Source of the DNA: Methanosaeta sp. PtaB.Bin018
Lineage (GTDB): Archaea > Halobacteriota > Methanosarcinia > Methanotrichales > Methanotrichaceae
Reading direction: 5' to 3'
Assembly (NCBI GenBank): GCA_002067755.1
Contig: MVQH01000077.1
Location: 1,425-65,424 of the forward strand
DNA length: 64,000 bases
Notes under the pieces: generated by a model
Told to the model about the DNA's origin: nothing
Databases searched by the model: none
Seen by the model: the letters and a program-made list of their open reading frames with translations, nothing else
Part shown: positions 30,656 through 63,360 of the stretch, in pieces
Layout: every line of letters begins with the position of its first letter
How positions within the stretch are numbered: position 1 is the stretch's first letter
Translations under genes and position numbers: made by a program

Positions 30656-33043
30656 ATGGCTGAACAGAAACCGTCTAAGAATACGAGAGCGTTTATCACC
30701 ATTATCATATCGTCTTTGATAGCTTTCAATTCTTTGATAGCTTTCAATATTACTAACGCGTCAGACTGGCCGCTGTTCAAGAAGGATGTTTTGAACTCCG
30801 GCATAAGTTCCGATCGCGTTCCAAGCACTCCCGTGATACTGTGGTCTGCTGACATACAGAGGATGGAGACCACACCCATTATCTCCTCCGATCTGGTCTA
30901 TGCTCTTACGGGTAACGGTTCTGTCTGGGCCATTGACAAGGAGACCGGCAAATCGAGATGGCTGTCCCAGTTGGAGGGTTGGGTCTACCAGATGTCTACA
31001 CTGGCAAGCAGCGGAGAGAAAATCTTCGCTGCCACCGATTCGGGATTGCTAGCGGCCTATGATGCTCTGACAGGACGAGTGCTCTGGGTGAGGAGTCTGA
31101 CGGATAAGAGGTTCGAGGCACCAATAAACTATATAGACGGTCGGCTATACCTGGGAGAAGGAAGCGCCTACGGATCTGGCAAAAAGAGGTTCTTCTGCCT
31201 TTACGAGAACGGCACAGAGTGCTGGAATGTCTCTCGAAATACTAAGGGCTATCAATGGTGTGGGGCTGCTCAGGCTGGCAGTTATCTGGTATTCGGCCAG
31301 AATGACGGTGTCCTTTTGAGCGTGAACCGCCACAGTGGAGAGGTGGCCGATGAGCTGAGCCTGATCAACAGCTCCAGACTGAGCTTCTCTCAAGATAGAG
31401 CGGGAAGAGTTCGCGCATCCGTGGCCTTCAATGACAGCTACGTTTACGTCACATCCGAGTTCTCGGCAAAGGAAGGCTTTGCCTGGAAGATAGGCCTGGA
31501 TCCGAATACGGGCAAGTTCGAGGACCGCGGGTGGAGCTCCCCCGTGGGGTTTTCCACATCTACCCCTTCAGTCTGCAACAACCGGGTTTACATGGGCGTG
31601 GGCGAGCACGGACATCCCGGTGCCCTGGTCTGCCTTAACGATTCTTCCGGCGATCTGATCTGGTCCTATCCTGTGGAGGCAGGCGTGAAATCATCTCCAT
31701 CCGTATCGACGGCTTATGAGAAGCCTAGGATTTTATTCACCACTGCAAAGGTCGATGGCTATGTCTACTGCATAGAGGACAGTGGAGAAAAAGCTGTTCT
31801 ATTGTGGAGGTTGGATCCGCCCGATCCTGGCTACCTCTTGGGAGGCATATCCATCTCAGATGGTAGGATTTACTTCGGAACCGAGGGCGACCAACATTAC
31901 GGCAAACTGTACTGCCTTGGCGATGAATATGACGATGTTGAGGGCTGGACTCAGTTTCACAGCAACCCGCAGCATCATGGGTACAGCAGCACTAAAGCCC
32001 CCAGGTCCAACAAAACCGCCTGGATAAGCGAGGATATAGGTGCTCAGCCGGGATCTTCAGTCACTGTGGCCGAAGGATCGGTATTCGTGAATTGCGTTCA
32101 CAATCTGACCTGCCTAGATCAGAAGTCTGGAGAGGTGCTCTGGACATCTCCATTCAATGCCTCAGGAGACTATGCATTTGGATTTACCCCGGTTTACAGC
32201 AGAGGCCGGGTCTTCTTCACATCAGACAAGACTTACTGCCTGAACGCACAAGATGGCAGTGAGGTCTGGAGCTTTTCTCTGCCCACCGACAAGTTTGCAA
32301 TCGACGGTAGCCCGGCAATAGTTGACGGCAAAGCAATCGTCAGCGACTGGGATGGTCATCACTACTACTGCCTTGACGAGGTTACTGGAGAGGAACTGTG
32401 GAACTTCACCGTCGAGGGCAATGCTCAGTCTACCCCAGCCATCGACCAGGGAAGGGTGGTCTTTGGCAGCTGGGAGTGGGGCCTTGGCGGCAAGGTCTAC
32501 TGTGTCGACCTCAGAGATGGCTCAGAGATCTGGAATATGACAACCAAAAACTCACCATGCGGCTCGGCGACGATCGAGAACAAAACAGTCTACATGGCCA
32601 CCTACAACTTCGAAGGGGACGGCGATCTCCTGGCCATGACATTAGACAGCGGTTCTGTTCAATGGATGGCACAAGTAAGCCCCACCGACTCGACCCCTGT
32701 TGTGGTCGACGGGAGGGTCTATTTATGCGGAGGATGCGATGGTTTTTCCGAGCTTGTAACTTACTGCTTCGATGCGAATAGCGGCGAGCTCATATGGAGT
32801 ACATCGCCCAAAGAGAGCATCGGCGACTGGAGATGCTCTCCTGCCTTTGCTGACGGCCTGCTGTTTGTCGGAAGGCCGAATTTCATAGAGTTTAGAGGGA
32901 CTTTTGCCCTGAACGCCACTTCTGGCGAGGTGGTCTGGAGCTATCCAGAGGGAGGCTCATCTCCATCTCTGGCCGGCGGGATGCTCTTCACCATTGGCGG
33001 CGGCAGAGTCTATGCTTTTGGTGATGATTTATTGGAGGAATGA
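30656..33043 (+). CDS. Exported PQQ-like (BamB-type) beta-propeller repeat protein with two propeller modules
   Basis: 795 aa with an N-terminal hydrophobic segment. Each module opens with WP(L/Q)F..-type motifs (DWPLFKKDVLNSG; WTQFHSNPQHHG). Repeated ...G.V.A.D..TG...W blades. Confidence 0.8.
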   Translation: MAEQKPSKNTRAFITIIISSLIAFNSLIAFNITNASDWPLFKKDVLNSGISSDRVPSTPVILWSADIQRMETTPIISSDLVYALTGNGSVWAIDKETGKSRWLSQLEGWVYQMSTLASSGEKIFAATDSGLLAAYDALTGRVLWVRSLTDKRFEAPINYIDGRLYLGEGSAYGSGKKRFFCLYENGTECWNVSRNTKGYQWCGAAQAGSYLVFGQNDGVLLSVNRHSGEVADELSLINSSRLSFSQDRAGRVRASVAFNDSYVYVTSEFSAKEGFAWKIGLDPNTGKFEDRGWSSPVGFSTSTPSVCNNRVYMGVGEHGHPGALVCLNDSSGDLIWSYPVEAGVKSSPSVSTAYEKPRILFTTAKVDGYVYCIEDSGEKAVLLWRLDPPDPGYLLGGISISDGRIYFGTEGDQHYGKLYCLGDEYDDVEGWTQFHSNPQHHGYSSTKAPRSNKTAWISEDIGAQPGSSVTVAEGSVFVNCVHNLTCLDQKSGEVLWTSPFNASGDYAFGFTPVYSRGRVFFTSDKTYCLNAQDGSEVWSFSLPTDKFAIDGSPAIVDGKAIVSDWDGHHYYCLDEVTGEELWNFTVEGNAQSTPAIDQGRVVFGSWEWGLGGKVYCVDLRDGSEIWNMTTKNSPCGSATIENKTVYMATYNFEGDGDLLAMTLDSGSVQWMAQVSPTDSTPVVVDGRVYLCGGCDGFSELVTYCFDANSGELIWSTSPKESIGDWRCSPAFADGLLFVGRPNFIEFRGTFALNATSGEVVWSYPEGGSSPSLAGGMLFTIGGGRVYAFGDDLLEE
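30713..30748 (+). repeat. Perfect 18-bp tandem duplication inside the signal/anchor segment
   Basis: TCTTTGATAGCTTTCAAT occurs twice in tandem, encoding SLIAFN-SLIAFN. Confidence 0.9.
32339..32569 (+). repeat. Copy 1 of a ~231-bp near-identical segment shared by two adjacent propeller genes
   Basis: Matches 33544-33774 with 3 mismatches by eye. Encodes VSDWDGHHYYCLDEVTGEELWNFTVEGNAQSTPAIDQGRVVFGSWEWGLGGKVYCVDLRDGSEIWNMTTKNSPCGSA. Flanking sequence is far more divergent. Confidence 0.9.
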
Positions 33044-34254
33044 TAATGGAGAATTACATCGTTAAACTCGCGGGCTGGAAAACAATAGCTCTATTGATTT
33101 TCTGGCTCATCATTCAGCCTGTTGTATGTAGCAGTGACCTGGATTGGCCACAGTTCCACATGAACCCACAGCATACGGGCAACGCAAGCGTCAACGCTCC
33201 AGATGCGGCCCTTCTGGCTTGGAAGAGCGAAGCAATCGGCGCTCAGGAGGGGTCATCTGTATCGGTGGCAGAGGAGAAGGTATTCGTAAACTGCGTCAGC
33301 AATTTGACCTGTCTTGACCTGCGAACTGGAAAATTGCTATGGAGCACTGCCTTCACCCCCATGGACGATATCTGTCAGGCATTTGGCTGCTCGCCGGCAT
33401 ATCATCAAGGCAAGGTCTTTCTCTCCAGCCAAGATACCCTCTGCCTTAATGCATCTGACGGAAAGGTGCTGTGGATCTTTACACCTCCCACGAAAAGGGG
33501 TGCATTGGATGGAGGACCAGTGATAAGCGACGGCTTCGTTCTGGTCAGCGACTGGGATGGTCATCACTACTACTGCCTTGACGAGGTTACTGGAGAGGAA
33601 CTGTGGAACTTCACAGTCGAGGGCAATGCTCAGTCTACCCCAGCCATCGACCAGGGAAGAGTGGTCTTTGGCAGCTGGGAGTGGGGCCTTGGCGGCAAGG
33701 TCTACTGTGTCGACCTCAGAGATGGCTCAGAGATCTGGAATATGACAACCAAAAACTCGCCATGCGGCTCGGCTGCCATTTGGCAGAATGTGACCTGGGT
33801 TACCACTTACAACTTCGAAGGAGATGGAGAAGTCATGGCCATCTCACTCGAGGACGGGAAACTTCTCTGGGAGAGGACCATTCAGAGAACGGACTGTACC
33901 CCCACGCTTGCCAGCGGACGGCTATATGTTTGTGGTGGTGCCGATGGCTTCAGCGACAAGGTCACCTACTGCTTCGATGCCTCTAGCGGCGAACTTCTCT
34001 GGAATACTTCGAAGGAGGAGGAGATCGGCGAGTGGAGATGCTCTCCTGCCTATGCGGACGGCCTGCTGTTTGTGGGCAAGACAGATAGCAAGAGCTCCAC
34101 ATACGATACCCTCTGTGCGCTTAATGCCAGTACAGGTGATATTGTATGGAGCTATCCGGCAAGCGGATCGGCCCCGGCAGTTGCCTATGGAATGGTATTC
34201 TCCATAGGCGCAGGCAGGGTCTACGCTTTTGGGCCTGGAGGCAGCAGCACGTGA
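33040..34254 (+). CDS. Exported PQQ-like beta-propeller protein, single module, paralogous to the C-terminal half of the upstream gene
   Basis: 404 aa with an N-terminal hydrophobic segment, then DWPQFHMNPQHTGN. ATGA start/stop overlap with the upstream gene. Confidence 0.8.
   Translation: MIMENYIVKLAGWKTIALLIFWLIIQPVVCSSDLDWPQFHMNPQHTGNASVNAPDAALLAWKSEAIGAQEGSSVSVAEEKVFVNCVSNLTCLDLRTGKLLWSTAFTPMDDICQAFGCSPAYHQGKVFLSSQDTLCLNASDGKVLWIFTPPTKRGALDGGPVISDGFVLVSDWDGHHYYCLDEVTGEELWNFTVEGNAQSTPAIDQGRVVFGSWEWGLGGKVYCVDLRDGSEIWNMTTKNSPCGSAAIWQNVTWVTTYNFEGDGEVMAISLEDGKLLWERTIQRTDCTPTLASGRLYVCGGADGFSDKVTYCFDASSGELLWNTSKEEEIGEWRCSPAYADGLLFVGKTDSKSSTYDTLCALNASTGDIVWSYPASGSAPAVAYGMVFSIGAGRVYAFGPGGSST
33544..33774 (+). 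repeat. Copy 2 of the ~231-bp near-identical segment
   Basis: See 32339-32569. Confidence 0.9.
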
Positions 34255-37200
34255 GGATATCTGATGCCAAAAATTTGGGAGTCTGCATCCCTCTGATCTT
34301 TTTTTTATTTGGATTGATGATGCAGGCCAGTGCAGACTTCACCACTTTTCACGGTGATAACCAGAGGACTGGCAACGTAAGCGGCAACTATCCTGATGAA
34401 CCCCATGTTCTCTGGAGCGCGAGCCCGACAGGTCACGGCTACATTGGCGCTACAGCTGCCATATCTGGCATTAGAGTTTACATCTCCAACTGGCCGGATA
34501 TGACCTTCAAAGGGGAGCTTGGGCTTGCATGCCTGGATGAAGAAAATGGGACAGTCCTCTGGCTCAATTCGCTTGGCGGCAAAGGTGGAGCCTCAACTCC
34601 TGCCATATCGGATGACAGGGTCTTTGTCGGCTCACTTACGGGAGACCTTTACTGCCTTAACTCCACTACCGGAAAAACATTGTGGAACCGCACTCTAGAT
34701 AAAAATCCGGGGTGGTGGGGAGTGGCATCATCGCCTCTGGTTCAGGGTGAGACGGTATACGTCATGAGTTTCTCAGACGGAGCTATTCATTCTCTGGATC
34801 TGGATGGAAAGGAGATGTGGAACATGACCACGGGTCGGATTCATCCCTTCGCATCAGCTGCATCATCAGGCAGAAGGCTTTACTTCCCCGGTGGCGATCC
34901 GGCACTGTACTGCATCGATGCAACCTCAGGAGAGCTGGTATGGAAAGCCCCGCAAGAGTCTCAGATCACAGCCACCCCAGCCCTCTGGAACGATCTGGCA
35001 TTCATTGTTACTGAGAAAGCCCTTAAGGCCCTAAATGCCAGCACAGGCCAGGAGATCTGGAAGGTAGCCATCAATGGCACGATGTCTTCGCCTGCCATCT
35101 CTTTCGATAGGGTCTATGTCGGATCGGATGACGGATCCACGGGCCACTTGGCCTGCTTTAATGCCCAAAATGGCTCACAGGTTTGGAGAACGGAGGTCAA
35201 CGGCCCAGTCAGATCCTCGCCTCTGGTCGGGGATGGGAAGGTCTACTTCGGAACTAATACAGAGGCTGGAGTCATCTATTCACTGAATGCCTCCAATGGG
35301 TCTGTCGCCTGGAGCTACCCCGTCCATCAATATGTTATGGCCTCTGCTGCTGGATCCGATGGCGTCATCTTCATAGGGTCCGATGATGGCCTTCTCTACG
35401 CCTTTGGTTTTATGCCGAAGGGGCATCTCCGGAATGGAGACATTCAGCATGATGATGAATCAGTCAAATTCAATATCACAGCACACACAACTCGCCCAAA
35501 TGCACTTTTCATTACTGTAGGCAACCATCCTCAAATAGAAGTGGCCTCCCAAAATGCTGCTCTTAATGTGACCTTGGCTCCACCAACCAATGTCTCGAAC
35601 TTATCCTCTTATGACCTAATATTCCTGGAGATGCTCGGGGCAGAGGATGTTTCAAATCTTGCGCCCCTGATCGAGGATGCTAAAAAAAAAGGCGTTCCTG
35701 TAATAATACTAAACTCTGGGGGCTATGAAGACCTTGGCAATGTGAATTTATCGGATCATCCTAAAATTCAAGAATACTGGGACTACAGCGGCATTGAGAA
35801 CATGAGACGACTCTATTCCTACCTGGCAGCACGCATATTGGGCTTAAATGTCAAAGTAGAGGAGCCCGTACCCACCCCAAAAGAATACATATACCATCCA
35901 GATTCAGCTGAGATCTTCGATAACCTCTCACATTATTTGGACTGGTATGAGAATAAACCCGGACATCGTTACAATCAATCAGCTCCAACTATTGGCATAT
36001 TGAGCTATTATACAGACCTGGGACAAATAGACATTAACCGTCTCATCTCTGCCTTGGAGAGAGAGGGAGCAAACGTCATAGGCGCAGGATTCTCCAACAC
36101 ATCGACCATCAAAAGGCTCTTCTTCAAGAACGGAACGCCTATCGTAAACGCCGTGATACTCACCAAGTCCTTCCGGATAAATTATGGTGATGCAGATCAG
36201 GGTGTCTCGGATTTAGAAGACCTAAATGTTCCTGTGCTACGTGCAATGAGGTTATACTACCAGACTGCAGAGCAGTGGACAAATGCGTCCAGCATCGAGC
36301 CGATAGAGCTCTATTTCCAGGTCGCTCAGCCTGAGATGGATGGGGTCATTGAGCCCATTGTAATCTCAGGCAGAGACGAGACGATCTATGCTCCGGTGGA
36401 GAGCCAGATCGAATGGATAGCCGAACGGGCCTTAGCCTGGGCAGAGCTGGAAAGAAAGCCCGAGTCGGACAGGAAGCTGGCCATCATCTATTATAATCAC
36501 GCGGCTGGCAAGGACAACCTGGAAGGCTGCTACCTCAATGTTCCCCGCACCCTAGAGAATATCCTGGAAGGCCTGAACAGATCGCTATTCAAGGTGCAGG
36601 GAAGCATTCCAGATGAGAAGGACCTGGTAGATCTCCTGGCCCACGAGGGAACCAACATTGGATCCTGGGCCCCAGGTGAGCTTTTGTCGATGGTCGATAA
36701 GGGGAATGCAACTTTAATTCCTGCCGAAGAATACCTCTCCTGGTTTGAAACCCTGCCCGCAAACAGACAGGAGGAGACGATAAAACACTGGGGACCACCG
36801 CCAGGCGATATAATGGTCTATCAGAACGAGAGCGGAAAATATATTGTCATTCCAAAGCTCTCCTTTGGAAATGTCATTTTGCTGCCTCAGCCCACCAGAG
36901 GCTGGTTGGAGAACAATACAGTACTTTATCACTCCACCGACCTTCCTCCTCATCATCAGTACATAGCCTTCTATCTCTGGCTCAAAAATGGATTTGGCGC
37001 TGATGCCATAGTCCATCTGGGAAAACATGGGACTCAGGAGTGGCTGCCCGGCAAGGAATGCGGCATATCCAGAGATGACTGGCCTGCACTTCTCATCCAG
37101 GACCTGCCTGTGGTCTACCCATATATCGTCGACAACATTGCCGAAGGGACGCAGGCCAAGCGCAGGGGAGATGCTGTGATGGTCACCCATCTCACTCCGC

Positions 37201-39470
37201 CAATTGTTGCCTCCGGGCTATATGGCAACCTGACAAACCTTGCACAGACGGTCTTCGAATACAAGAGTGTGCAAAACGCCAGCGTGAAAGAGGGCTACAA
37301 GAGACAGATCATCAACATCAGCAGGGATATGCATCTGGACGAAGATCTTGAGGTGGATCTGAATCTTATCTCTTCAAATTCTACCAGCTTCGATGTCTAT
37401 GCAGATGATCTGGAAAGATATCTTTACGATCTTAAGAACCAGTTCATGCCATACGGACTTCACACCTTTGGCAAGCCTCCTGAGGGCAGGGCTCTGGTGG
37501 GCATGGTGAAGTCCATGCTGGGAGAGGGCCTGTCCAAAGAGGTTGCACACATGATATCATACAGCGATTATCCAAACATCACGCGCCTTGACAAGGAGAA
37601 TGAGCTCGAAAACTGCGAAACAAAGCTGCTTTCACTGGTAGTGATCAACGGGACTCTTCCTGATTATGCCCAGATGGCGGTTTTGAATAATGTCTCAAGA
37701 AACCTGTCTGATCAGCTAAATCTATCTCTGGCATATGCACAGAACATTCGAGCCTGCCAAAGAGAGGTGAGAAGCCTCGTAAGTGCCTTGGACTCCAATT
37801 ATACATCGCCTTCTCCAGCCGACGATCCTATTCGAGATCCAGAGGTTCTTCCTACCGGACGGAACTTCAGGTCACTTGATCCGCGCAGGGTGCCAACAAG
37901 TGCTGCCTGGGAGGTAGGCAAAAATCTGGCTGAAAAGATCATTGAAGAATACAGGCAGGATCACAACGGTACTTTTCCAAGAAAGCTGGCGATGGTGCTC
38001 TGGGCCTGGGCCATGACTGATCACGGTGTTGTGGAATCGGAAATCCTCTCTTTGATAGGGGCAAAGCCAGTCTATGACGGCTACGGTGGAGTGTGTGACG
38101 TAAAACTTGTACCGCTCTCCGAGCTCGGCAGGCCCAGGATAGATGTGGTGGTCGTGCCTTCAGGCCTTGACAGAGATCTGTTTCCAGAGAAGCTCCAGCT
38201 AATAGACAGAGCTATCAGACTGGCCAGCAACGACAGTAGCACAGAGTATTCCAACTTTATCCGAGAGAACTCAGAAAAGATATTCCAGGAGCTGATGGCC
38301 ACAGGAAATGTGAGCGAGAGTGATGCACGAATCCTATCCACCTCCAGGATATTCCTGGAAGAGGCAGGGACATACGGTCCCAACCTCGACGCTGCAATAT
38401 CTGCCAGCAATGCCTGGGAGAATGACACAGTGCTTGGCAACCTCTTCATAAAGAGGATGTCTTACATCTACGGCGATGGGATCTGGAGCAGCAAGCTGGC
38501 CTCCGGAGAGGACCTATCTCCCTTGCAAGAGGATCTATACAAGACCAATCTTCAGGAGGTAGAGGCAGCAGTCCATCACACCAACTCCAACCTCTACGGA
38601 TTCATAGACAACGACGACGTCCTCCAGTACCTGGGAGGCATAGGGCTGGCGGTGAGAACTGTCAGTGGAAAAACACCTGATATGTACGTCACCGATGCCA
38701 GAGATCCTGAAAGCACAGCAGTATCATCGTTACACAACTTTTTCTCCAAGGAGCTTCGGGCACGTTACTACAATCCTCAGTGGATCAAAGGGATGATGGA
38801 GCAGGGCTACTCAGGTGCCAGGGAGATGGACAAGTTCGTTGAAAACCTGTGGGGCTGGGAGGCTATGCTTCCCGATATGGTCTCTGAGGCTGTCTGGAAT
38901 GAGGTGCATGATGTCTATGTAAGGGACAAGTATGATCTCGGCATGAAACAGTTCTTTGACCAGAACAATCCCTGGGCATCTCAGGCCCTCGAAGGGAGAA
39001 TGCTCGAGACTGCCAGGAAATGTAGGTGGCACCCAGACCAGGCTACAAAGGCAGATCTAGTCCGGGAGTACCAACGATCGGTAAAGGATTTTGGTGTGAC
39101 CTGCTGTCACCACACCTGCGGCAACCTACTGCTAAACGAGTACATGAGTGGAATTCTCCCTGCACAAGACAGACAAGACGGCTCCAGACAGAGCGACTCG
39201 AAGCCAAGCCATAAAAGCTCCTCGTCCAAACGCTCCTCTCCAGGGGGCGCTTCTGGACGCTTCAACACAACGAAGTCGAGCGGTGTGGGCACAGCGTCCG
39301 CAAAGCCTGTGGAAAAGACACAGTCAGCCTCAGAAGAAGTGCAGGGCATGGTCATGGAAAGCCCTTCGAACGACATCTCTCTGCCATCCATTTCTGGCGC
39401 GCCGCTCATGGGTGTGGCCTTGGTGCTTGTCATGTTGCTGTTCATGATCGCAGGATTCAGGAGAGGCTGA
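34251..39470 (+). CDS. Exported fusion protein: PQQ-like beta-propeller, then a CobN/ChlH-type (class I) chelatase large-subunit domain, then a Ser-rich linker and a C-terminal TM anchor
   Basis: A GTG at 34251 (GTGA overlap with the upstream stop) gives the signal-like (M)RISDAKNLGVCIPLIFFLFGLMMQASA. The propeller module starts FTTFHGDNQRTGN. The CobN-type core includes HLGKHGTQEWLPGKE, DPIRDPEVLPTGRNF and AVHHTNSNLYGFIDNDD. The C-terminus is SSSSKRSS...PLMGVALVLVMLLFMIAGFRRG. I count about 35-40 N-x-S/T sequons by eye along the whole length. Confidence 0.85.
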   Translation: MRISDAKNLGVCIPLIFFLFGLMMQASADFTTFHGDNQRTGNVSGNYPDEPHVLWSASPTGHGYIGATAAISGIRVYISNWPDMTFKGELGLACLDEENGTVLWLNSLGGKGGASTPAISDDRVFVGSLTGDLYCLNSTTGKTLWNRTLDKNPGWWGVASSPLVQGETVYVMSFSDGAIHSLDLDGKEMWNMTTGRIHPFASAASSGRRLYFPGGDPALYCIDATSGELVWKAPQESQITATPALWNDLAFIVTEKALKALNASTGQEIWKVAINGTMSSPAISFDRVYVGSDDGSTGHLACFNAQNGSQVWRTEVNGPVRSSPLVGDGKVYFGTNTEAGVIYSLNASNGSVAWSYPVHQYVMASAAGSDGVIFIGSDDGLLYAFGFMPKGHLRNGDIQHDDESVKFNITAHTTRPNALFITVGNHPQIEVASQNAALNVTLAPPTNVSNLSSYDLIFLEMLGAEDVSNLAPLIEDAKKKGVPVIILNSGGYEDLGNVNLSDHPKIQEYWDYSGIENMRRLYSYLAARILGLNVKVEEPVPTPKEYIYHPDSAEIFDNLSHYLDWYENKPGHRYNQSAPTIGILSYYTDLGQIDINRLISALEREGANVIGAGFSNTSTIKRLFFKNGTPIVNAVILTKSFRINYGDADQGVSDLEDLNVPVLRAMRLYYQTAEQWTNASSIEPIELYFQVAQPEMDGVIEPIVISGRDETIYAPVESQIEWIAERALAWAELERKPESDRKLAIIYYNHAAGKDNLEGCYLNVPRTLENILEGLNRSLFKVQGSIPDEKDLVDLLAHEGTNIGSWAPGELLSMVDKGNATLIPAEEYLSWFETLPANRQEETIKHWGPPPGDIMVYQNESGKYIVIPKLSFGNVILLPQPTRGWLENNTVLYHSTDLPPHHQYIAFYLWLKNGFGADAIVHLGKHGTQEWLPGKECGISRDDWPALLIQDLPVVYPYIVDNIAEGTQAKRRGDAVMVTHLTPPIVASGLYGNLTNLAQTVFEYKSVQNASVKEGYKRQIINISRDMHLDEDLEVDLNLISSNSTSFDVYADDLERYLYDLKNQFMPYGLHTFGKPPEGRALVGMVKSMLGEGLSKEVAHMISYSDYPNITRLDKENELENCETKLLSLVVINGTLPDYAQMAVLNNVSRNLSDQLNLSLAYAQNIRACQREVRSLVSALDSNYTSPSPADDPIRDPEVLPTGRNFRSLDPRRVPTSAAWEVGKNLAEKIIEEYRQDHNGTFPRKLAMVLWAWAMTDHGVVESEILSLIGAKPVYDGYGGVCDVKLVPLSELGRPRIDVVVVPSGLDRDLFPEKLQLIDRAIRLASNDSSTEYSNFIRENSEKIFQELMATGNVSESDARILSTSRIFLEEAGTYGPNLDAAISASNAWENDTVLGNLFIKRMSYIYGDGIWSSKLASGEDLSPLQEDLYKTNLQEVEAAVHHTNSNLYGFIDNDDVLQYLGGIGLAVRTVSGKTPDMYVTDARDPESTAVSSLHNFFSKELRARYYNPQWIKGMMEQGYSGAREMDKFVENLWGWEAMLPDMVSEAVWNEVHDVYVRDKYDLGMKQFFDQNNPWASQALEGRMLETARKCRWHPDQATKADLVREYQRSVKDFGVTCCHHTCGNLLLNEYMSGILPAQDRQDGSRQSDSKPSHKSSSSKRSSPGGASGRFNTTKSSGVGTASAKPVEKTQSASEEVQGMVMESPSNDISLPSISGAPLMGVALVLVMLLFMIAGFRRG

Positions 39471-39557: not shown

Positions 39558-40250
39558 TTGGTGTCCTCATTGGAGCTCTCATCGATTACTGTTAGTGGTA
39601 TCTTGATAGGCATTCTTATCTTTGCATTTAAAGTCAGCCTTGGCTGTGGCATGGCCTGCCTCAGCCGTCGTGAAACTCTGTTAATAGCTCTCAGCTATAT
39701 GGCACTGGCCAGCCTGATGGGTGTCATCATTGGATTCATACCGAATTCGGTCTTCTTTTGGCTGCTGAACGCTGGGGTGGCCATGCATGCCGTCATCGCC
39801 TTGCTACTGGTCACCTTGGGCGTGATTACTGCTAGGGAATGGAACCGTGAAGGCCATGATATCTCTCGTCGCACCTTCTGGGCCCTGTCCTTTCCCTGTC
39901 CGGCCTGCATGGCCGCAACTTTCCTATCCTGTAGCTTTCTTGTAGGCGTTTTAAATGTTGCCTCTTGGATGATAGGCCTTGCCGTGGGAGCGGTCTTTCT
40001 CGTATCCATCATCGGGCTATCTGAGCTGTTTCGAAAGAGTCACAGGACGCCATCTGATATGGGCAATGCCATGATATTTCTAGGGCTTTTTTATATTTTA
40101 TCAATGCTGGTCATCCCTGCTTACCTCGGCTCTAAAATAGCTTCAACGCCTTCGGAGATGCCCTCAGTAAATGCTGTCTACATTTATGGATTTCTTTTTG
40201 GAATGGTGCTTCTGGGATACCTGAGCAGGAGGATGGGGGTCGCCAAATGA
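39558..40250 (+). CDS. Polytopic membrane protein (DUF2162-like predicted transporter) with an intramembrane CPAC motif
   Basis: 230 aa with ~6 hydrophobic segments. SFPCPACMAATFLSC is encoded at 39897-39908. TTG start as tracked. The DUF2162 assignment is from memory of methanogen annotations. Confidence 0.6.
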   Translation: MVSSLELSSITVSGILIGILIFAFKVSLGCGMACLSRRETLLIALSYMALASLMGVIIGFIPNSVFFWLLNAGVAMHAVIALLLVTLGVITAREWNREGHDISRRTFWALSFPCPACMAATFLSCSFLVGVLNVASWMIGLAVGAVFLVSIIGLSELFRKSHRTPSDMGNAMIFLGLFYILSMLVIPAYLGSKIASTPSEMPSVNAVYIYGFLFGMVLLGYLSRRMGVAK

Positions 40251-40888
40251 TGGGCATCTACGATACATGCGAATACATGCTCTATGTATTCTCAGATGCC
40301 ATGCTTTATCCAGATATGATCGGGCTGATCCTCCTATTTGGCTGGTCTCTAACCCTGGTAGGATCGATGGTTCATGATTTCACCACCCGTAATAGAGATC
40401 TCGAGAAGATTGAGGAGATATGTTTTCAGGCGGCGGGTCTTGTGCGATCTGGCCGGACGGATCAGGCTGCAGCAAAGCTCGGCAGCTATGGGTCCAAGAC
40501 GCTTGTCTCCCGGGTTTTAAAGGAGATGGGAGATGCCATTTTGGTTGGGACCTTCCACCTGAAGTTCGAGAAGATTTTGCAGGATGCAGAGATCAGCATA
40601 GACAAATCACTTGAGCTCATTCGGATCGGTGTCAGGATAGGACCAATGCTGGGGCTGATGGGAACACTGATACCCCTGGGACCAGCACTTCTTGGCCTGG
40701 CTCAAGGCAATATCAAGCAGCTTTCAGACAGCCTGGTGATAGCTTTCACCACCACTGTGGTGGGCATAGTGGTGGGAGGGATATGCTACTGTGTTGCGAC
40801 AATAAGGACGCGATGGTACCGTCAGGACTTGAGCGATCTGGAGTATGCAGTCGACATCCTCAGGAGCGAGATTGATGAGGGGGCGTAG
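40247..40888 (+). CDS. MotA/TolQ/ExbB-family proton channel protein
   Basis: C-terminal signature GPMLGLMGTLIPLGPALLGLA...SDSLVIAFTTTVVGIVVG. ATGA overlap with the upstream gene. Confidence 0.8.
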   Translation: MMGIYDTCEYMLYVFSDAMLYPDMIGLILLFGWSLTLVGSMVHDFTTRNRDLEKIEEICFQAAGLVRSGRTDQAAAKLGSYGSKTLVSRVLKEMGDAILVGTFHLKFEKILQDAEISIDKSLELIRIGVRIGPMLGLMGTLIPLGPALLGLAQGNIKQLSDSLVIAFTTTVVGIVVGGICYCVATIRTRWYRQDLSDLEYAVDILRSEIDEGA

Positions 40889-41231
40889 GTATTTCAGCGA
40901 GGCTGCTCCATGGAATGAGGACCCCATGAGCGGGCTGTCTAATATCTTCGACGCTGCCATGGTCTTTGCTCTTGGGTTCTTGCTGGCGCTAGCAGTCTCG
41001 TACAGCATCCAAGAGATGCTCGATCCTCAAAGCACAGTGACTTTGGTCAAGAATCCAGGAGATCCCGATATGCAGATAATCATCAAGGACATGGATAAAA
41101 TTCAGGTGCTGAACATGACCGACAAGATTGCTGGAGGACAGGGCACAAAGATGGGAACAGCCTATCGCCTGGAGAACGGGCAGGTGGTCTATGTGCCGGA
41201 GAACGCCACTTCGCCCTCAGTTCAGAGTTAG
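40875..41231 (+). CDS. Single-pass membrane protein (DUF2149-like), ExbD/TolR-like in topology
   Basis: ATG 40875 overlaps the ExbB-like gene by 14 nt. The TM segment LSNIFDAAMVFALGFLLALAV carries an Asp at its start, as ExbD/TolR do. A ~80-aa extracytoplasmic domain follows. Confidence 0.55.
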   Translation: MRGRRYFSEAAPWNEDPMSGLSNIFDAAMVFALGFLLALAVSYSIQEMLDPQSTVTLVKNPGDPDMQIIIKDMDKIQVLNMTDKIAGGQGTKMGTAYRLENGQVVYVPENATSPSVQS

Positions 41232-41422
41232 GGCAGCCCCATTGATAATTTCTCATTTAGTTCCTGATCATCGGCATATTTCACCTTGTTTTTGGTGCTA
41301 TTTGGGTTATTAAATGATCAAAAGATGCTAATTTTAATCTTAGTCCAAAAAGTTTAAATAAAATCATTATAACTTGATCTACTTGATTTGTATTAACAAA
41401 AATTAATTTGAGGTAGAGAGGG

Positions 41423-42943
41423 ATGAAACATTTGGCTTTGGCGCTATTTTGCGTTTTTTTACTTACACTCACAACAGCATCGGCAGAGGTAACGGCTCAA
41501 ATAACTGTTTTTTGTAATGGAGGTGTAGTCTACGACAATGCTGTGACGGTTACTGGTTCGAATCCCACTGCCTGGGACGCCATTCGGGCAAGTGATGTGG
41601 GCTATGATTATACCGACTATGGTGGATGGATTTTTATAAATAGCATTGCAGGATGCGGCGGAAGCTGGGGCCCCGCATTTTATGTAAATGGAGCCGAGTC
41701 CGATGTAGGCGTCAACAGTTACTACATAGAAGATGGCGATCATCTTCAGTTCATTGGGCCGAACAATGGCGGACCGACAGCAGGCATCCTGTATCTTGCT
41801 GTGCTTCCGGATGTTGTAGCCAAAGGCGAAGGCTTCAGGGTCAAAGTAATGGAAAAATCTGCATACTCATATGGGGGCTATGATCGCCCATCAGCAGGCG
41901 CAACAGTCACCATAGGCAATGAGACCTTCGATACAGGCAGCGACGGCTACACAGACGAGATCGTCCTCGACTATGACGCCTATTATTGCGTAGCCGCAGA
42001 GAAGGGCGGATATGTGGCCACATATTACTTTTATGGCCTTCCGTATATTCAGTGTGGAGTTGGAGGGCCCTACATTTGTAGCGTTACTGGCGAAGGGTCG
42101 AAGAGAGGAAATATAAAGTACGACGAAGACTCATCGGTCAGCGGCGAAGGGTTCTGTTCGTGCCGATCCTACTTTGAAAATTATGGCGGAAAATATCCAG
42201 CACGCTCGACAAAGGCTTACCAAAAGGGATCTGGAAGCTACGACGCTGAGAGAATTATCAAGCAGAGGCCGAGTGGAATCGACCTCAGCGAATCAACGGA
42301 GATGAATTATCGTCCGACCACAGTTGAGGCTTATAGCCGGGATCTTAACTACAAATCCAATTACGAGGACAGCATATACCAGAAGAATTATCGTGGAGCC
42401 ACAGAATCCTCCGAGAGATATCGCCAACTGAATTCCCTTACGAAGACGAGCTATTATAACAATAGCCGAGGAATCAATTACTCTTTCACGGCGAACTTTC
42501 AGGGAATAGCTGAACTGTCTGCACGCACCCTTGAGGACGAGGCCTTCTTGGACTGGAGAGAAAAGGCTCGGCCTAAGGAAGAGTCTATTGAGACTTACAT
42601 CGGCAACTTCCAAATTTCCCGAAGAGGTTTTCTCCCGATGGGTGGGAACGATGAAACGGATTGCGAAGAGGACTGCAAATGGAATTGTAAAAAGCATTGC
42701 ATGGAGGACGAGGGATATAGCGAGGAGTACTGCGAAGAGCATTGCGGTGAGTATTGCGAAGATTATTGCGAGAACGAATCTACCTATGAGGATTATGAGC
42801 TTTTACCATGCTGTAGCGGTGGATGGTTCAATATGACAAAGGCAGATCAGATTGGACATTCTGCCAAAGGCATCTTCGATTGCTCCTGCAAAATTACTGC
42901 GGCTCCAGTATTGATCGGCAAGAAGGCCAGTTCGAAGGCATAA
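41423..42943 (+). CDS. Secreted DUF4430-domain protein (transcobalamin beta-domain-like) with Ig-like middle region and a Cys/Glu-rich C-terminal region
   Basis: Signal MKHLALALFCVFLLTLTTASA. DUF4430-like block TAWDAIRAS...YGGWIFINSIAG...WGPAFYVNGAESDVGVNSYYIEDGDHLQF. Then CEEDCKWNCKKHC...YCEEHCGEYCEDYC. Confidence 0.65.
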   Translation: MKHLALALFCVFLLTLTTASAEVTAQITVFCNGGVVYDNAVTVTGSNPTAWDAIRASDVGYDYTDYGGWIFINSIAGCGGSWGPAFYVNGAESDVGVNSYYIEDGDHLQFIGPNNGGPTAGILYLAVLPDVVAKGEGFRVKVMEKSAYSYGGYDRPSAGATVTIGNETFDTGSDGYTDEIVLDYDAYYCVAAEKGGYVATYYFYGLPYIQCGVGGPYICSVTGEGSKRGNIKYDEDSSVSGEGFCSCRSYFENYGGKYPARSTKAYQKGSGSYDAERIIKQRPSGIDLSESTEMNYRPTTVEAYSRDLNYKSNYEDSIYQKNYRGATESSERYRQLNSLTKTSYYNNSRGINYSFTANFQGIAELSARTLEDEAFLDWREKARPKEESIETYIGNFQISRRGFLPMGGNDETDCEEDCKWNCKKHCMEDEGYSEEYCEEHCGEYCEDYCENESTYEDYELLPCCSGGWFNMTKADQIGHSAKGIFDCSCKITAAPVLIGKKASSKA

Positions 42944-42944
42944 A

Positions 42945-43949
42945 ATGAGGGATGACATGATTAAATTGTTTGGTGCAGTCCTTGCCTCAGTCGTGTTTCT
43001 TGGCATAGCAACAGGAACTATCGACGGTTCCGGAGAGAAGAATCCGGTGGTCACCAATGATTCTTTGGAATTGGGACTTCTTTCGATGTCTGATGGGCCG
43101 ATAGTTTCTGCAATAAATTATCTATCGTCCTGCCAGAATGAGGATGGGGGCTTTGGACCCGATCCAGAATCTGAGAGCAACATTAAAGATACAGCCATAG
43201 TTACAATTGCCTTTGCGTCTGCAGGCAAAAATATGTCGGATTTTGCCAAGGGTGGGAAGAACTCCCTTGATTATTTAATTGAGAGGCAGGCAGAACTCGA
43301 CAATTTAAGCAATGTCGAAGCCCAGGTAGGGCGATACGTGACTGCCCTCGCATCAGCTGGCTTGGATCCAAGGGATATCAAAGGCAAAAACTACGTGCAA
43401 ATCTTGAAAAGCTACTGTCGACCCGACGGTGAGGTGGGCAAAGAGTTCTACATCTGGGATGATGCATGGATCGTGATCGCCCTTGCCGCATGCAATGAGT
43501 CTCATTCAAATGAGGTGAAAAGTGCGCTCGAGCATCTGAAGAGCATACAGACAGCCAAGGGAGGTTGGGCCTGGAACGGAGGCACTAGCGGCGAGGACCC
43601 AGACACTGCAAGCATAATTTTATGTGCACTGATATGTGGAGGTGAAGATGCGGACTCCGATGCGGTCAAGAGAGGTTTGCAGTATCTTTCATCAGAGCAA
43701 AATGCAGATGGAGGGTTCTCATCCGTTGGATCCAACGCTGCTACCGATGGCTGGGCTATCATGGCCCTCAATGCTGCAGGCCAAAATCCCAGATCATGGA
43801 AGAAGGGATCCTCCGATCCTATCGGCCATCTGCTAAGCCTCCAGCAGGATGACGGCTCTATATGGTGGAAAAAGGATAGCAAGGGTTTTTCCTTTGAGTG
43901 GACTGCCAATGGGATAATAGCCTTGACCGGAGGGCGAATGCCTCCGTGA
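42945..43949 (+). CDS. Secreted prenyltransferase/squalene-cyclase-like alpha/alpha-toroid repeat protein
   Basis: N-terminal hydrophobic segment, then QW-type repeats: QNEDGGFG, QTAKGGWAW, QNADGGFS, QQDDGSIWW. Starts 1 nt after the upstream stop. Confidence 0.7.
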   Translation: MRDDMIKLFGAVLASVVFLGIATGTIDGSGEKNPVVTNDSLELGLLSMSDGPIVSAINYLSSCQNEDGGFGPDPESESNIKDTAIVTIAFASAGKNMSDFAKGGKNSLDYLIERQAELDNLSNVEAQVGRYVTALASAGLDPRDIKGKNYVQILKSYCRPDGEVGKEFYIWDDAWIVIALAACNESHSNEVKSALEHLKSIQTAKGGWAWNGGTSGEDPDTASIILCALICGGEDADSDAVKRGLQYLSSEQNADGGFSSVGSNAATDGWAIMALNAAGQNPRSWKKGSSDPIGHLLSLQQDDGSIWWKKDSKGFSFEWTANGIIALTGGRMPP

Positions 43950-44016
43950 TCGCTCTCCTGGCACCTATCCATAAGTCCATTTCGCCACCTTTTTACAGAG
44001 GAATAGCATATCTTCG

Positions 44017-63353: not shown

Positions 63354-63360
63354 TTTCTTG

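What the first reader, a model, noticed from the sequence alone, without database searches (positions are those of the whole stretch)
41423..43949. Adjacent DUF4430 and alpha/alpha-toroid proteins look like a transcobalamin split into two genes
Eukaryotic transcobalamin and intrinsic factor bind cobalamin between an alpha6/alpha6-barrel domain and a small beta domain. From memory, DUF4430 is the family related to that beta domain. Here a secreted DUF4430 protein is followed, after a 1-nt gap, by a secreted protein built from QW-type alpha/alpha-toroid repeats (QNEDGGFG, QTAKGGWAW, QNADGGFS, QQDDGSIWW). Both halves of a corrinoid-binding architecture are therefore present as separate, co-translated polypeptides, immediately downstream of a chelatase/stator module.
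Basis: inference. Interest (0 to 1): 0.65.

Follow-up and report, generated by a model that had tools for sequence, protein, structure and literature searches.

The report
Split transcobalamin-like surface pair in Methanothrix
Two neighbouring secreted proteins of a sludge methanogen (Methanothrix) carry, on separate chains, the two domain types that vitamin-B12 carriers such as transcobalamin use to clamp their ligand; this kind of pairing is already described in bacteria, but here it sits with a surface enzyme module related to a heme iron-stripping system, which suggests tetrapyrrole or metal scavenging.

Summary
Two tightly coupled genes (1-nt gap) encode a secreted 506-aa protein and a secreted 334-aa alpha/alpha-toroid protein. 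The N-terminal ~95 residues of the first have the transcobalamin/intrinsic-factor beta-domain (DUF4430) fold.

"Transcobalamin split in two" is only partly supported.
- **Beta half:** confirmed by fold and profile.
- **Toroid:** scores as a squalene-cyclase/prenyltransferase-type toroid. No transcobalamin match was seen for this protein, only weak Cobalamin_bind hits in 7 of 39 relatives.
- **Gene order:** beta then alpha, the reverse of transcobalamin.
- **First protein:** it also has a beta-sandwich, a surface-protein domain, a Cys-rich hairpin and a C-terminal module.
- **Cyclase acid motif:** degenerate (EDPD instead of DxDD).

The functional link is strong. The pair is adjacent in 15 of 18 Methanotrichaceae genome loci and fused into one giant ORF in the other three. 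A direct fusion also exists. The pair usually lies near a PQQ-propeller/CobN/MotA/DUF2149 module whose chelatase is closest to the heme dechelatase HmuS.

The concept is not new (Burroughs 2007; the L. sakei Lsa1839/1840 pair, linked to heme uptake). The most likely role is an extracellular tetrapyrrole-capture pair. The ligand is unproven, and corrinoid is no better supported than heme.

The parts
41298..41422 (+). Upstream spacer that travels with the pair; probably its own promoter and ribosome-binding region (GAGGTAGAGAGGG before the ATG).
   Evidence: In the closest relative (L005, about 90% nt identity) the shared block is exactly window 41298-43985 while the flanks differ. The sequence is shown. 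The promoter role is inferred.
41423..42943 (+). ORF1, a 506-aa secreted multidomain protein found only in Methanotrichaceae.
   Evidence: ORF. 49 homologues at 47% identity or more, all about 450-510 aa. Alignment A2. AlphaFold model with mean pLDDT 62.
41423..41485 (+). ORF1 signal peptide (residues 1-21, ...TTASA|EV).
   Evidence: Hydrophobic N-terminus, predicted helix 2-16, conserved in the alignment. Cleavage is inferred.
41486..41767 (+). ORF1 DUF4430 / transcobalamin-like beta-grasp (SLBB) domain, residues about 22-115.
   Evidence: Pfam DUF4430 at 22 bits, below the cutoff. hhalign to the DUF4430 part of fused relatives gives probability 80% and E 1.3e-5. Foldseek top hits are 4kki, 2pmv, 3u7z and 3kq4. 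The joint profile hits TC2 at E 1.5e-5.
41780..42022 (+). ORF1 beta-sandwich (CarboxypepD_reg-like), residues about 120-200. It always follows the DUF4430 unit.
   Evidence: AlphaFold strands with pLDDT 70-91. The DUF4430 plus sandwich unit is repeated three times in the L017 giant protein, which has a weak CarboxypepD_reg hit.
42110..42637 (+). ORF1 beta-rich middle domain (residues about 230-405, long hairpins). An uncharacterised module shared with large DUF11/DUF7507 surface proteins.
   Evidence: Model. Profile positions about 260-402 hit many proteins of 600-2100 aa that carry DUF11/DUF7507/CARDB.
42662..42772 (+). ORF1 acidic Cys-rich helical hairpin (residues 414-450, eight Cys in CX3C spacing). 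Possibly metal-binding.
   Evidence: Cys positions; helices 414-429 and 434-450. The segment is missing in 7-8 of 35 homologues. The metal-binding role is inferred.
42803..42892 (+). ORF1 conserved C-terminal module LPCCxGGW...HSAxGIFDC.
   Evidence: L461, P462 and C463 are invariant. The same module ends unrelated secreted proteins of about 270 aa.
42945..43949 (+). ORF2, a 334-aa secreted or anchored single-domain alpha/alpha toroid. It starts 1 nt after the ORF1 stop.
   Evidence: Orthologues.
42945..43019 (+). ORF2 N-terminal hydrophobic signal or anchor segment (residues about 1-25).
   Evidence: Hydropathy; low pLDDT for residues 1-38. The segment is absent where the toroid is fused behind ORF1 (P0170).
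43077..43934 (+). ORF2 toroid proper (residues about 45-330) with four QW-type repeats. The cyclase acid motif is degenerate (E217-D-P-D220-T-A).
   Evidence: pLDDT above 90. Foldseek finds SHC, MstE and prenyltransferase beta at TM 0.55-0.63.
30656..34254 (+). Two secreted PQQ-type beta-propeller proteins (795 and 404 aa) that co-occur with the pair.
   Evidence: Pfam; synteny.
34146..39470 (+). Secreted PQQ-propeller plus CobN-family chelatase with a C-terminal membrane anchor. Closest solved relative is the heme dechelatase HmuS.
   Evidence: Pfam and NCBIfam. PDB scores: HmuS 9d26 527 bits, ChlH 469, CobN 456. 39 N-x-S/T sequons, a signal-like segment and a C-terminal TM.
39558..41231 (+). 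DUF2162 membrane protein, MotA/ExbB-type channel and DUF2149. The last two are counterparts of HmuU and HmuV.
   Evidence: Pfam. The hmu operon composition is given in PMC10434189 and PMC11681262.

Best explanation
ORF1 and ORF2 are the two halves of a prokaryotic transcobalamin-like ligand clamp, made as separate secreted proteins. One half is a beta-grasp (SLBB/DUF4430) domain and the other is an alpha/alpha toroid. They are translationally coupled and are expected to assemble on the Methanothrix cell surface, with a soluble tetrapyrrole-type ligand held between the DUF4430 domain and the mouth of the toroid.

The rest of ORF1 probably holds the complex in the cell envelope and may take up released metal. 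These parts are the beta-sandwich, the surface-protein domain, the Cys-rich hairpin and the C-terminal module.

The pair works with the neighbouring extracellular PQQ-propeller/CobN(HmuS-like)/DUF2162-MotA-DUF2149 module. In this reading the pair plays the capture role that the hemophore HmuY has in Bacteroidota. It would feed heme, corrinoids or other metallotetrapyrroles to a surface (de)chelatase for metal or cofactor salvage.

Shown here: the folds, the homologies, the fusions and the gene neighbourhood. Inferred: the physical interaction, the ligand and the hand-over.
For: **Domain identity**
- The beta-domain fold is supported by Foldseek hits to haptocorrin, intrinsic factor and 3u7z, each with probability 1.0, while every other hit is at 0.30 or below.
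- Profile links: E 1.3e-5; fused family against the TC2 beta domain, E 2.6e-4, collinear positions 317-385 vs 333-402; TC2 E 1.5e-5; nine of the ten hits are cobalamin carriers.
- ORF2 is a confident toroid.

**Functional coupling of the two genes**
- The gap is 1 nt here, 3 nt in L003 and L004, and the genes overlap in L002 and L030.
- The pair is adjacent in 15 of the 18 Methanotrichaceae genome loci and fused into one giant ORF in the other three.
- A direct ORF1-toroid fusion exists: P0170, 775 aa.
- Giant ORFs of 2157-2417 aa in three species contain toroid, 3-4 copies of DUF4430 plus sandwich, ORF1-like middle domains and the orthologous toroid.

**Link to the chelatase module**
- The pair lies within 10 kb of PQQ, CobN or stator genes in at least 15 loci, in at least three different gene orders.
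- The CobN domain is closest to the heme dechelatase HmuS.
- MotA plus DUF2149 correspond to HmuU and HmuV.

**Generality**
- L030 has a DUF4430 protein followed by a toroid, then a Peripla_BP_2 binding protein and a FecCD permease.
- A Firmicute locus has two DUF4430 genes, an ECF transporter, an SLH-toroid and an ECF S component.
- Fused or extended toroid proteins (P0058 with DUF4430; P0054, no DUF4430 on record) sit next to an ECF S component.

**Literature**
- SLBB plus toroid was predicted to clamp B12 or another metabolite, and a different metabolite was suggested for archaea (PMC1796856).
- The L. sakei operon with separate beta- and alpha-like genes is required for heme uptake (10.1101/864751).
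- CobN-like BtuS proteins of Methanosarcina respond to the iron source (PMC10846266).
Against: - No binding or interaction data exist, and no complex model could be run.
- ORF2 gives no match to the transcobalamin alpha domain in the results that could be seen.
- ORF1's DUF4430 is divergent. It scores below the Pfam threshold, and the usual GW-x-Y-x-VNG reads WGPAFYVNG.
- In the closest relative the pair sits away from the chelatase module. In this window a 191-bp spacer separates them, so co-transcription with the module is not shown.
- Metatranscriptome contigs cover the module and the 3' half of ORF2 only thinly, and ORF1 not at all.
- Methanogens make their own corrinoids and F430, so the need for uptake is unclear.
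- Distant toroid relatives keep an intact DxDDTA motif, so the ancestral function of the toroid may not have been pure binding.
Confidence: 0.45

Rival explanations
1. The pair would be a corrinoid-specific carrier, a two-chain transcobalamin, that scavenges cobalamin or cobamides for the cell.
For: The beta domain resembles cobalamin carriers only. Fused relatives are collinear with transcobalamin. Relatives sit next to ECF or BtuF/FecCD-type importers, the classes that import B12. Burroughs et al. predicted B12 scavenging for this clade.
Against: The same paper notes that archaea with these proteins usually synthesise B12 and may bind a different metabolite. The studied split pair is tied to heme uptake, not B12. 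The local partner is HmuS-like, not a B12 importer. No cobalamin importer, cobalamin biosynthesis gene or riboswitch was found in the parts of the window that were examined. No similarity of ORF2 to the transcobalamin alpha domain was seen.
Confidence: 0.2
2. The two proteins are structural or adhesive components of the Methanothrix envelope (sheath or S-layer associated). In this reading the toroid and beta-grasp bind glycan or protein rather than a cofactor. The link to the chelatase module would reflect only a shared surface location.
For: ORF1's middle domain and C-terminal module recur in DUF11/DUF7507/CARDB surface proteins. Giant fusions resemble adhesin-like surface proteins. Toroid relatives carry SLH or Cu_amine_oxidN1 wall-binding domains. 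ORF2 gives weak TED_complement similarity.
Against: The specific and repeated pairing of DUF4430 with a toroid, across phyla and next to tetrapyrrole-class importers, is hard to explain by surface location alone. The invariant residues of the toroid are the QW-type repeat residues and no other conserved site was identified, so sequence alone does not decide this.
Confidence: 0.2
3. ORF1 is chiefly a metal-handling partner of the surface chelatase. Its Cys-rich acidic hairpin, and possibly the DUF4430 domain, would bind Ni, Co or Fe. The toroid would be an accessory scaffold.
For: ORF1 has eight Cys in CX3C spacing on a predicted helical hairpin flanked by acidic residues. The DUF4430 structure 3u7z was deposited as a 'putative metal binding protein'. 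The pair neighbours a CobN-family enzyme.
Against: The Cys-rich segment is missing in 7-8 of 35 orthologues, so it is not essential. The 3u7z name is a deposition label, not a result. This reading does not explain the conserved toroid partner.
Confidence: 0.1
4. ORF2 is an enzyme: a single-domain class II terpene cyclase or a prenyltransferase acting on envelope isoprenoids.
For: The best sequence and fold matches are SHC, single-domain cyclases (8paj, 8pak, MstE) and prenyltransferase beta subunits. Distant homologues keep DYDDTA or DVDDTA.
Against: In ORF2 and all Methanotrichaceae orthologues aligned, the central general-acid Asp is replaced by Pro, Ala, Val, Thr or Ser, giving E-D-P-D. There is no invariant Cys for a Zn site, and His295 is only near-invariant. 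There is no prenyltransferase alpha-subunit neighbour. The protein has a signal or anchor segment and is fused to surface domains in relatives.
Confidence: 0.03

Closest known systems
Prokaryotic transcobalamin-like SLBB (DUF4430) proteins combined with an alpha/alpha toroid (Burroughs, Balaji, Iyer, Aravind 2007, PMC1796856)
   Same: These are secreted beta-grasp domains of the transcobalamin clade that act with an alpha/alpha toroid. The toroid may lie N- or C-terminal to the SLBB. Fusions to Ig-like and other surface domains occur, and paralogous SLBB proteins share operons. The authors predicted soluble-ligand (B12 or other) scavenging and flagged the archaeal members as possibly binding another metabolite.
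   Different: In this window the two domains are on separate, translationally coupled chains. ORF1 adds a Methanotrichaceae-specific middle domain, a Cys-rich hairpin and a C-terminal module. The partner genes are a CobN(HmuS-like)/PQQ/MotA/DUF2149 module rather than CbiO/CbiQ-type transporters.
Lactobacillus sakei Lsa1839/Lsa1840 in the lsa1836-1840 ECF-like operon (Verplaetse et al., bioRxiv 10.1101/864751)
   Same: Separate genes encode a transcobalamin beta-like and an alpha-like (prenyltransferase-type toroid) protein. They are proposed to form an extracellular heterodimer that captures a tetrapyrrole.
   Different: It is bacterial and linked to an ECF importer. Deletion of the whole operon impairs heme uptake, but the pair itself was only modelled. 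No homology between those proteins and the window's proteins was tested here.
Eukaryotic transcobalamin, intrinsic factor and haptocorrin (PDB 2bb5, 2pmv, 4kki)
   Same: The beta-domain fold and sequence profile match ORF1 residues about 22-115. The overall logic is the same: a toroid plus a beta domain clamping a corrinoid.
   Different: These are single chains with alpha then beta. The alpha domain (Pfam Cobalamin_bind) is not detected in ORF2 and is only weakly detected in 7 of 39 relatives. They have no extra surface domains.
Bacteroidota Hmu system (HmuY-R-S-T-U-V; HmuS is a heme dechelatase, PMC12583661)
   Same: It has a CobN-family enzyme closest to HmuS, followed by a membrane protein, a MotA/ExbB-type protein and a DUF2149 protein in the same order.
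   Different: The window has no outer membrane, no HmuY hemophore and no HmuR receptor. The archaeal enzyme is secreted, fused to a PQQ-type propeller and C-terminally anchored. The transcobalamin-like pair is proposed, not shown, to take the capture role. Whether HmuT belongs to DUF2162 was not tested.
Class II terpene cyclases (squalene-hopene cyclase, MstE) and prenyltransferase beta subunits
   Same: They share the QW-repeat alpha/alpha toroid and give the best sequence and fold scores to ORF2.
   Different: The central acid of the catalytic DxDD motif is lost. No Zn-site ligands are conserved. ORF2 is secreted and is paired or fused with DUF4430.

Membership tests
DUF4430 / transcobalamin-like SLBB beta-grasp (Pfam PF14478) | Match to the family HMM at or above the gathering score | tested here: inconclusive
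   ORF1 scores 22.0 bits against a cutoff of 23.8 (E 2.2e-4). One orthologue (P0127) carries a precomputed PF14478 hit. The fusion protein P0170 scores 23.8 bits.
DUF4430 / transcobalamin-like SLBB beta-grasp (Pfam PF14478) | Profile-level homology to bona fide members | tested here: met
   hhalign of the ORF1 N-terminal profile against the DUF4430 part of fused proteins gives probability 80.5% and E 1.3e-5. The joint profile hits TC2 at 1.5e-5, IF at 0.09 and HC at 0.37, and almost nothing else.
DUF4430 / transcobalamin-like SLBB beta-grasp (Pfam PF14478) | Beta-grasp fold of the transcobalamin beta-domain type | tested here: met
   Foldseek ranks 1-4 are haptocorrin 4kki (E 2.8e-3), IF 2pmv, DUF4430 3u7z (TM to target 0.60) and IF 3kq4 (rmsd 2.7 A over 110 columns). 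All have probability 1.0, and every other hit is at 0.30 or below. The model's pLDDT in this domain is 67-86.
DUF4430 / transcobalamin-like SLBB beta-grasp (Pfam PF14478) | Binds a soluble ligand (B12 in the characterised members) | not testable with these tools
   This needs binding assays or a modelled or solved complex.
Transcobalamin / intrinsic factor / haptocorrin family | One polypeptide with an N-terminal alpha6/alpha6 domain followed by a C-terminal beta domain | tested here: not met
   The window has two genes, with the beta-containing protein first. Collinear single-chain relatives exist elsewhere.
Transcobalamin / intrinsic factor / haptocorrin family | Alpha domain recognisable as Cobalamin_bind (PF01122) or as a transcobalamin alpha-domain structure | tested here: not met
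   ORF2 gives no PF01122 hit at E up to 10. Only 7 of 39 family members hit it weakly (best 0.0029). No TC, IF or HC chain appears in the top 50 Foldseek hits or in the 60 PDB profile hits shown, of 65. Only the top 50 of 579 Foldseek matches could be seen.
Transcobalamin / intrinsic factor / haptocorrin family | Cobalamin bound at the alpha/beta interface | not testable with these tools
   No complex prediction or assay was available.
Class II terpene cyclases (SHC type) | QW-repeat alpha/alpha toroid | tested here: met
   Pfam SQHop_cyclase_C at 1.4e-16. The A1 profile against SHC gives 3.8e-35. Foldseek gives TM 0.55-0.63.
Class II terpene cyclases (SHC type) | Intact DxDD motif with the central general-acid Asp | tested here: not met
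   ORF2 has E217-D-P-D220-T-A. The central position is Pro, Ala, Val, Thr or Ser in all Methanotrichaceae orthologues. DYDDTA, DVDDTA or DADDTA is kept only in distant homologues. The equivalence to the SHC motif rests on alignment to those homologues and on the known SHC motif DVDDTA (from memory).
Protein prenyltransferase beta subunits | Conserved Asp/Cys/His zinc site and a paired alpha subunit | tested here: not met
   There is no invariant Cys across A1, and His295 is only near-invariant. The adjacent gene encodes a DUF4430 protein, not a prenyltransferase alpha subunit.
Hmu-type CobN/MotA/DUF2149 module (genomic context) | CobN-family enzyme nearest to HmuS, followed by MotA/ExbB-type and DUF2149 proteins | tested here: met
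   Scores are HmuS 9d26 527 bits, ChlH 469 and CobN 456. Pfam finds MotA_ExbB and DUF2149. The operon composition is given.
Hmu-type CobN/MotA/DUF2149 module (genomic context) | HmuY hemophore, HmuR TonB-dependent receptor, and HmuT equivalent to DUF2162 | not tested
   No HmuY- or HmuR-like gene was seen among the neighbours examined, as expected without an outer membrane. No HmuT sequence was available for comparison with DUF2162.

The most novel reading that the evidence does not exclude
Methanothrix carries a cell-surface metal-harvesting machine. The transcobalamin-like pair would capture environmental metallotetrapyrroles such as heme, corrinoids, F430 or Ni/Co-porphyrins. An extracellular PQQ-propeller-CobN enzyme related to HmuS would strip or exchange the metal, coupled to a MotA/ExbB-DUF2149-DUF2162 membrane unit. 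ORF1's Cys-rich hairpin would receive the released metal. This would give the many unexplained archaeal CobN/HmuS homologues a function. It would also be a hemophore-independent, outer-membrane-independent version of the Hmu pathway.
Probability: 0.15. Interest if true: 0.8.

Novelty: new variant of a known kind. Interest (0 to 1): 0.45.

Why it matters
Methanothrix is a major acetate-using methanogen in digesters and wetlands, and it needs large amounts of Fe, Ni and Co cofactors. What the many archaeal CobN/HmuS homologues do is an openly stated unknown (PMC12583661).

This locus offers a concrete, testable set of candidate partners: a two-chain transcobalamin-like binder next to a secreted HmuS-like enzyme. 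If the pair binds a tetrapyrrole, that would define how an organism without an outer membrane captures such molecules.

Some transcobalamin-like fused proteins retain a squalene-cyclase-type DxDDTA motif. This suggests that the carrier's alpha domain descends from a terpene-cyclase-like toroid.

If the pair binds nothing of this kind, it is simply another envelope protein pair.

Tried and rejected
- **ORF1 against PDB sequences.** Whole-protein phmmer gave nothing. The N-terminal profile alone gave only noise. Only the wider DUF4430 profile worked.
- **ORF2 against the transcobalamin alpha domain.** No direct link was found by PDB profile search or Foldseek. Foldseek output is limited to the top 50 hits, so the rank of transcobalamin is unknown.
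- **Related loci with the broad toroid alignment.** The search failed because no conserved stretch was available. It was repeated with close homologues.
- **Rfam scan of the window.** No riboswitch or other RNA family was found.
- **Sigma-70 promoter and terminator scan.** Uninformative for an archaeon.
- **Metatranscriptome contigs.** They were too sparse to show co-transcription across the ORF1/ORF2 junction.
- **Enzymatic reading of the toroid.** Rejected on motif grounds.
- **ORF1 against the DUF4430 protein of L030.** They share only the DUF4430 segment, so the full ORF1 architecture is specific to Methanotrichaceae.
- **HmuT versus DUF2162.** The literature search could not settle whether they are the same family.

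Full report
**What is there.** The window comes from a Methanothrix (Methanotrichaceae) genome from anaerobic-digester or bioreactor sludge. This follows from the homologue names and locus titles and from the sequencing runs that hold it.

Two ORFs lie at the stated coordinates: 41423-42943 (506 aa) and 42945-43949 (334 aa). The junction reads TAA-A-ATG. Both proteins begin with a hydrophobic signal-like segment.

Upstream, on the same strand, lie:
- two secreted PQQ-type beta-propeller proteins;
- a 1774-aa PQQ-propeller-CobN fusion with a C-terminal membrane anchor and 39 N-x-S/T sequons;
- a DUF2162 membrane protein;
- a MotA/ExbB-type protein;
- a DUF2149 protein.

A 191-bp spacer precedes ORF1. 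Downstream come housekeeping genes; by their sequences these look like an IscS-like desulfurase, glyA and folD (not scanned against Pfam).

**ORF2.** Pfam scores it as SQHop_cyclase_C (1.4e-16) and Prenyltrans (6.3e-11). With 38 homologues, AlphaFold gives a confident single toroid (mean pLDDT 88; residues about 45-330 are above 90).

Foldseek's best matches are squalene-hopene cyclase, the single-domain class II cyclases 8paj, 8pak and MstE, drimenyl-diphosphate synthase and prenyltransferase beta subunits. TM-scores are 0.55-0.63. A family profile hits SHC at 3.8e-35.

No transcobalamin, intrinsic factor or haptocorrin chain appears in the visible part of either list. The only sequence trace of the carrier alpha domain is a weak Cobalamin_bind (PF01122) match in 7 of 39 family members (best E 0.0029). 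ORF2 itself does not match.

At the column where distant homologues carry DYDDTA, DVDDTA or DADDTA, ORF2 reads E-D-P-D-T-A. That column corresponds to the class II cyclase acid motif. All Methanotrichaceae orthologues have Pro, Ala, Val, Thr or Ser at the central position. No Cys is invariant across the family. An enzymatic role for ORF2 is therefore unlikely.

**ORF1.** This is not a simple DUF4430 protein. The Pfam hit is below threshold (22.0 against 23.8 bits). Three further lines agree that residues about 22-115 form a transcobalamin-type beta domain.
- The N-terminal profile aligns to the DUF4430 part of fused toroid-DUF4430 proteins (probability 80%, E 1.3e-5).
- That same part of the fused family hits the transcobalamin-2 beta domain.
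- A joint profile hits TC2 (1.5e-5), intrinsic factor and haptocorrin, and essentially nothing else in the PDB.

The AlphaFold model has mean pLDDT 62 overall and 67-86 in this domain. Its only confident Foldseek matches are haptocorrin, intrinsic factor (rmsd 2.7-3.9 A over about 110 columns) and the DUF4430 structure 3u7z.

The remaining parts of ORF1 are:
- a beta-sandwich (residues about 120-200);
- a beta-rich middle domain (about 230-405);
- an acidic helical hairpin with eight Cys in CX3C spacing (414-450), missing in 7-8 of 35 orthologues;
- a conserved LPCCxGGW C-terminal module.

A profile search of 1.8 billion representatives shows that these are separable modules. The middle domain recurs in large DUF11/DUF7507/CARDB surface proteins. 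The C-terminal module ends unrelated secreted proteins of about 270 aa. The full ORF1 architecture is confined to Methanotrichaceae.

**Are the two proteins functionally linked?** Yes, on comparative grounds.
- In 18 Methanotrichaceae genome loci the ORF1-ORF2 pair is adjacent in 15.
- In the other three (L017, L021, L022) one giant ORF of 2157-2417 aa contains all the parts. These are a paralogous toroid, three or four DUF4430-plus-sandwich units, DUF11 repeats, ORF1-like middle domains and, at the C-terminus, the orthologue of ORF2.
- One representative protein (P0170, 775 aa) is a direct ORF1-ORF2 fusion in the window's order. Its toroid lacks its own signal segment.
- Spacing between the two genes is always tight.

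The pair also keeps company with the PQQ, CobN or stator genes in at least 15 loci, but in different arrangements:
- collinear, as in this window (L008, L015);
- stator divergent from the pair (eight loci, e.g. L002), mostly with PQQ and CobN genes downstream; L009 is a variant with the PQQ genes also upstream;
- pair followed by PQQ and CobN (L003, L004, L006, L020).

Conservation of neighbourhood through rearrangement is the usual sign of a functional link. There is a caveat. In the closest relative (about 90% nt identity) only the block 41298-43985 is shared, and the module is not nearby. The pair is thus a self-contained cassette, probably with its own promoter.

**What the neighbours are.** The CobN domain's best solved relative is the heme dechelatase HmuS (527 bits, against ChlH 469 and CobN 456). 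The Bacteroidota hmu operon runs HmuS (CobN-like), HmuT, HmuU (MotA/ExbB) and HmuV (DUF2149). HmuS removes iron from heme anaerobically, and its authors state that the role of the many archaeal homologues is unknown. In Methanosarcina barkeri, CobN-like 'BtuS' proteins change abundance with the iron source. The archaeal enzyme here is secreted and anchored, so it cannot use cytoplasmic ATPase partners.

**Beyond Methanothrix.** The same two-gene logic recurs in other lineages.
- In L030 a PQQ propeller gene is followed by a bona fide DUF4430 protein (1.6e-15), an overlapping toroid gene, a Peripla_BP_2 binding protein and a FecCD permease.
- In Thermanaerosceptrum, two DUF4430 genes, CbiQ, ABC ATPases, an SLH-toroid and an ECF S component sit together.
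- A fused toroid-DUF4430 protein (P0058) and an extended toroid protein (P0054, no DUF4430 on record) each precede an ECF S-component gene.

These importer classes (ECF, BtuCDF-like) carry corrinoids, heme and siderophores.

**Prior knowledge.** Burroughs et al. (2007) defined the transcobalamin-like SLBB clade. They noted bacterial fusions to an alpha/alpha toroid on either side and predicted joint ligand clamping and B12 scavenging. They also suggested that archaeal members may bind another metabolite. In Lactobacillus sakei, separate beta-like and alpha-like genes (Lsa1839, Lsa1840) sit in an ECF-like operon whose deletion impairs heme uptake. 'A transcobalamin in two genes' is therefore a known kind of arrangement. 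What is new here is the archaeal version, the elaborate ORF1, and the association with an HmuS-like surface module instead of an importer.

**Most likely mechanism.** The two proteins are secreted, assemble at the cell surface and hold a tetrapyrrole-type ligand between the DUF4430 domain and the toroid. They then pass it to, or receive it from, the surface CobN-like (de)chelatase. ORF1's other domains anchor the complex and may bind metal.

Shown: the folds, homologies, fusions and neighbourhoods. Inferred: the interaction, the ligand and the hand-over. Corrinoid is one candidate ligand, but heme or other metallotetrapyrroles fit the context at least as well.

Expression data are thin. Four metatranscriptomes give low-depth contigs over the PQQ, CobN and stator genes and over the 3' half of ORF2, and none over ORF1.

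**Verdict.** This is a new variant of a known kind. Interest is moderate, because it gives a concrete handle on the unexplained archaeal CobN/HmuS homologues.

Noticed in passing
window 32351-32550 and 33556-33755: A patch of about 200 nt is 98-100% identical between the two tandem PQQ-propeller genes, which are otherwise about 45-70% identical at the DNA level. It encodes an identical stretch of about 75 aa (DGHHYYCLDEVTGEELWNF...). This looks like recent gene conversion between paralogues.
   Followed up: partly
window 34146-39470: The CobN-family protein is fused to an N-terminal PQQ-type propeller. It has a Ser-rich linker and a C-terminal TM anchor, and it carries 39 N-x-S/T sequons (22 per 1000 aa), so it is probably an extracellular glycoprotein. 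The listed ATG at 34146 overlaps the previous gene. The real start is probably further in, before the signal-like segment CIPLIFFLFGLMMQASA.
   Followed up: partly
L017:512-6985, L021:464-7213, L022:3596-10849: Single ORFs of 2157-2417 aa begin with a toroid and contain 3-4 tandem DUF4430-plus-sandwich units. L017, the one scanned, also has DUF11 repeats and ORF1-like middle domains. All three end with the orthologue of ORF2. In three species they replace the two-gene arrangement.
   Followed up: yes
window 42803-42892 (ORF1 residues 461-490); P0243 and similar proteins: A conserved C-terminal module, LPCCxGGW...D..GH.SAKGIFDC.C, is shared with otherwise unrelated secreted proteins of about 270 aa. 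It may be an envelope-anchoring or disulfide/metal knot module. No Pfam family covers it.
   Followed up: partly
window 42110-42637 (ORF1 residues about 230-405): An unannotated beta-rich domain of about 140-170 aa with very long predicted hairpins recurs, often twice, in many surface proteins of 600-2100 aa that also carry DUF11/DUF7507/CARDB repeats. Foldseek gives only low-probability pore-former and porin matches.
   Followed up: partly
P0058 (L001:10001-11644); P0055, P0057, P0063-P0068, P0077 and P0106: Some secreted toroid proteins that are fused to DUF4430 (P0058) or, for P0064, sit next to a DUF4430 gene keep an intact squalene-cyclase-type DxDDTA motif (DVDDTA, DYDDTA or DADDTA). This hints that the toroid of transcobalamin-like binders descends from a class II terpene-cyclase-like domain, or that these members still have some activity.
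   Followed up: partly
L002:1441-11002: In a 3.0-Mb Methanothrix genome, the divergent DUF2162/MotA/DUF2149 genes and the ORF1/toroid pair lie directly beside the mcrBDGA operon, which encodes the F430-containing methyl-coenzyme M reductase. No CobN gene lies within 10 kb.
   Followed up: no
window 43394-44054: Metatranscriptome contigs from four runs cover the 3' half of ORF2, and some run across its stop into the next gene (44017-45177, IscS-like by its sequence, not scanned), which has about 5-10 times higher depth. This could be an internal promoter or 5' leader of the downstream gene, or just patchy assembly.
   Followed up: no
window 41298-43985 compared with L005: In the closest relative (about 90% nt identity) the pair is embedded in a different neighbourhood, about 4.4 kb from the homologue of window 62266-64000. 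The pair has therefore moved as a cassette between close strains.
   Followed up: partly
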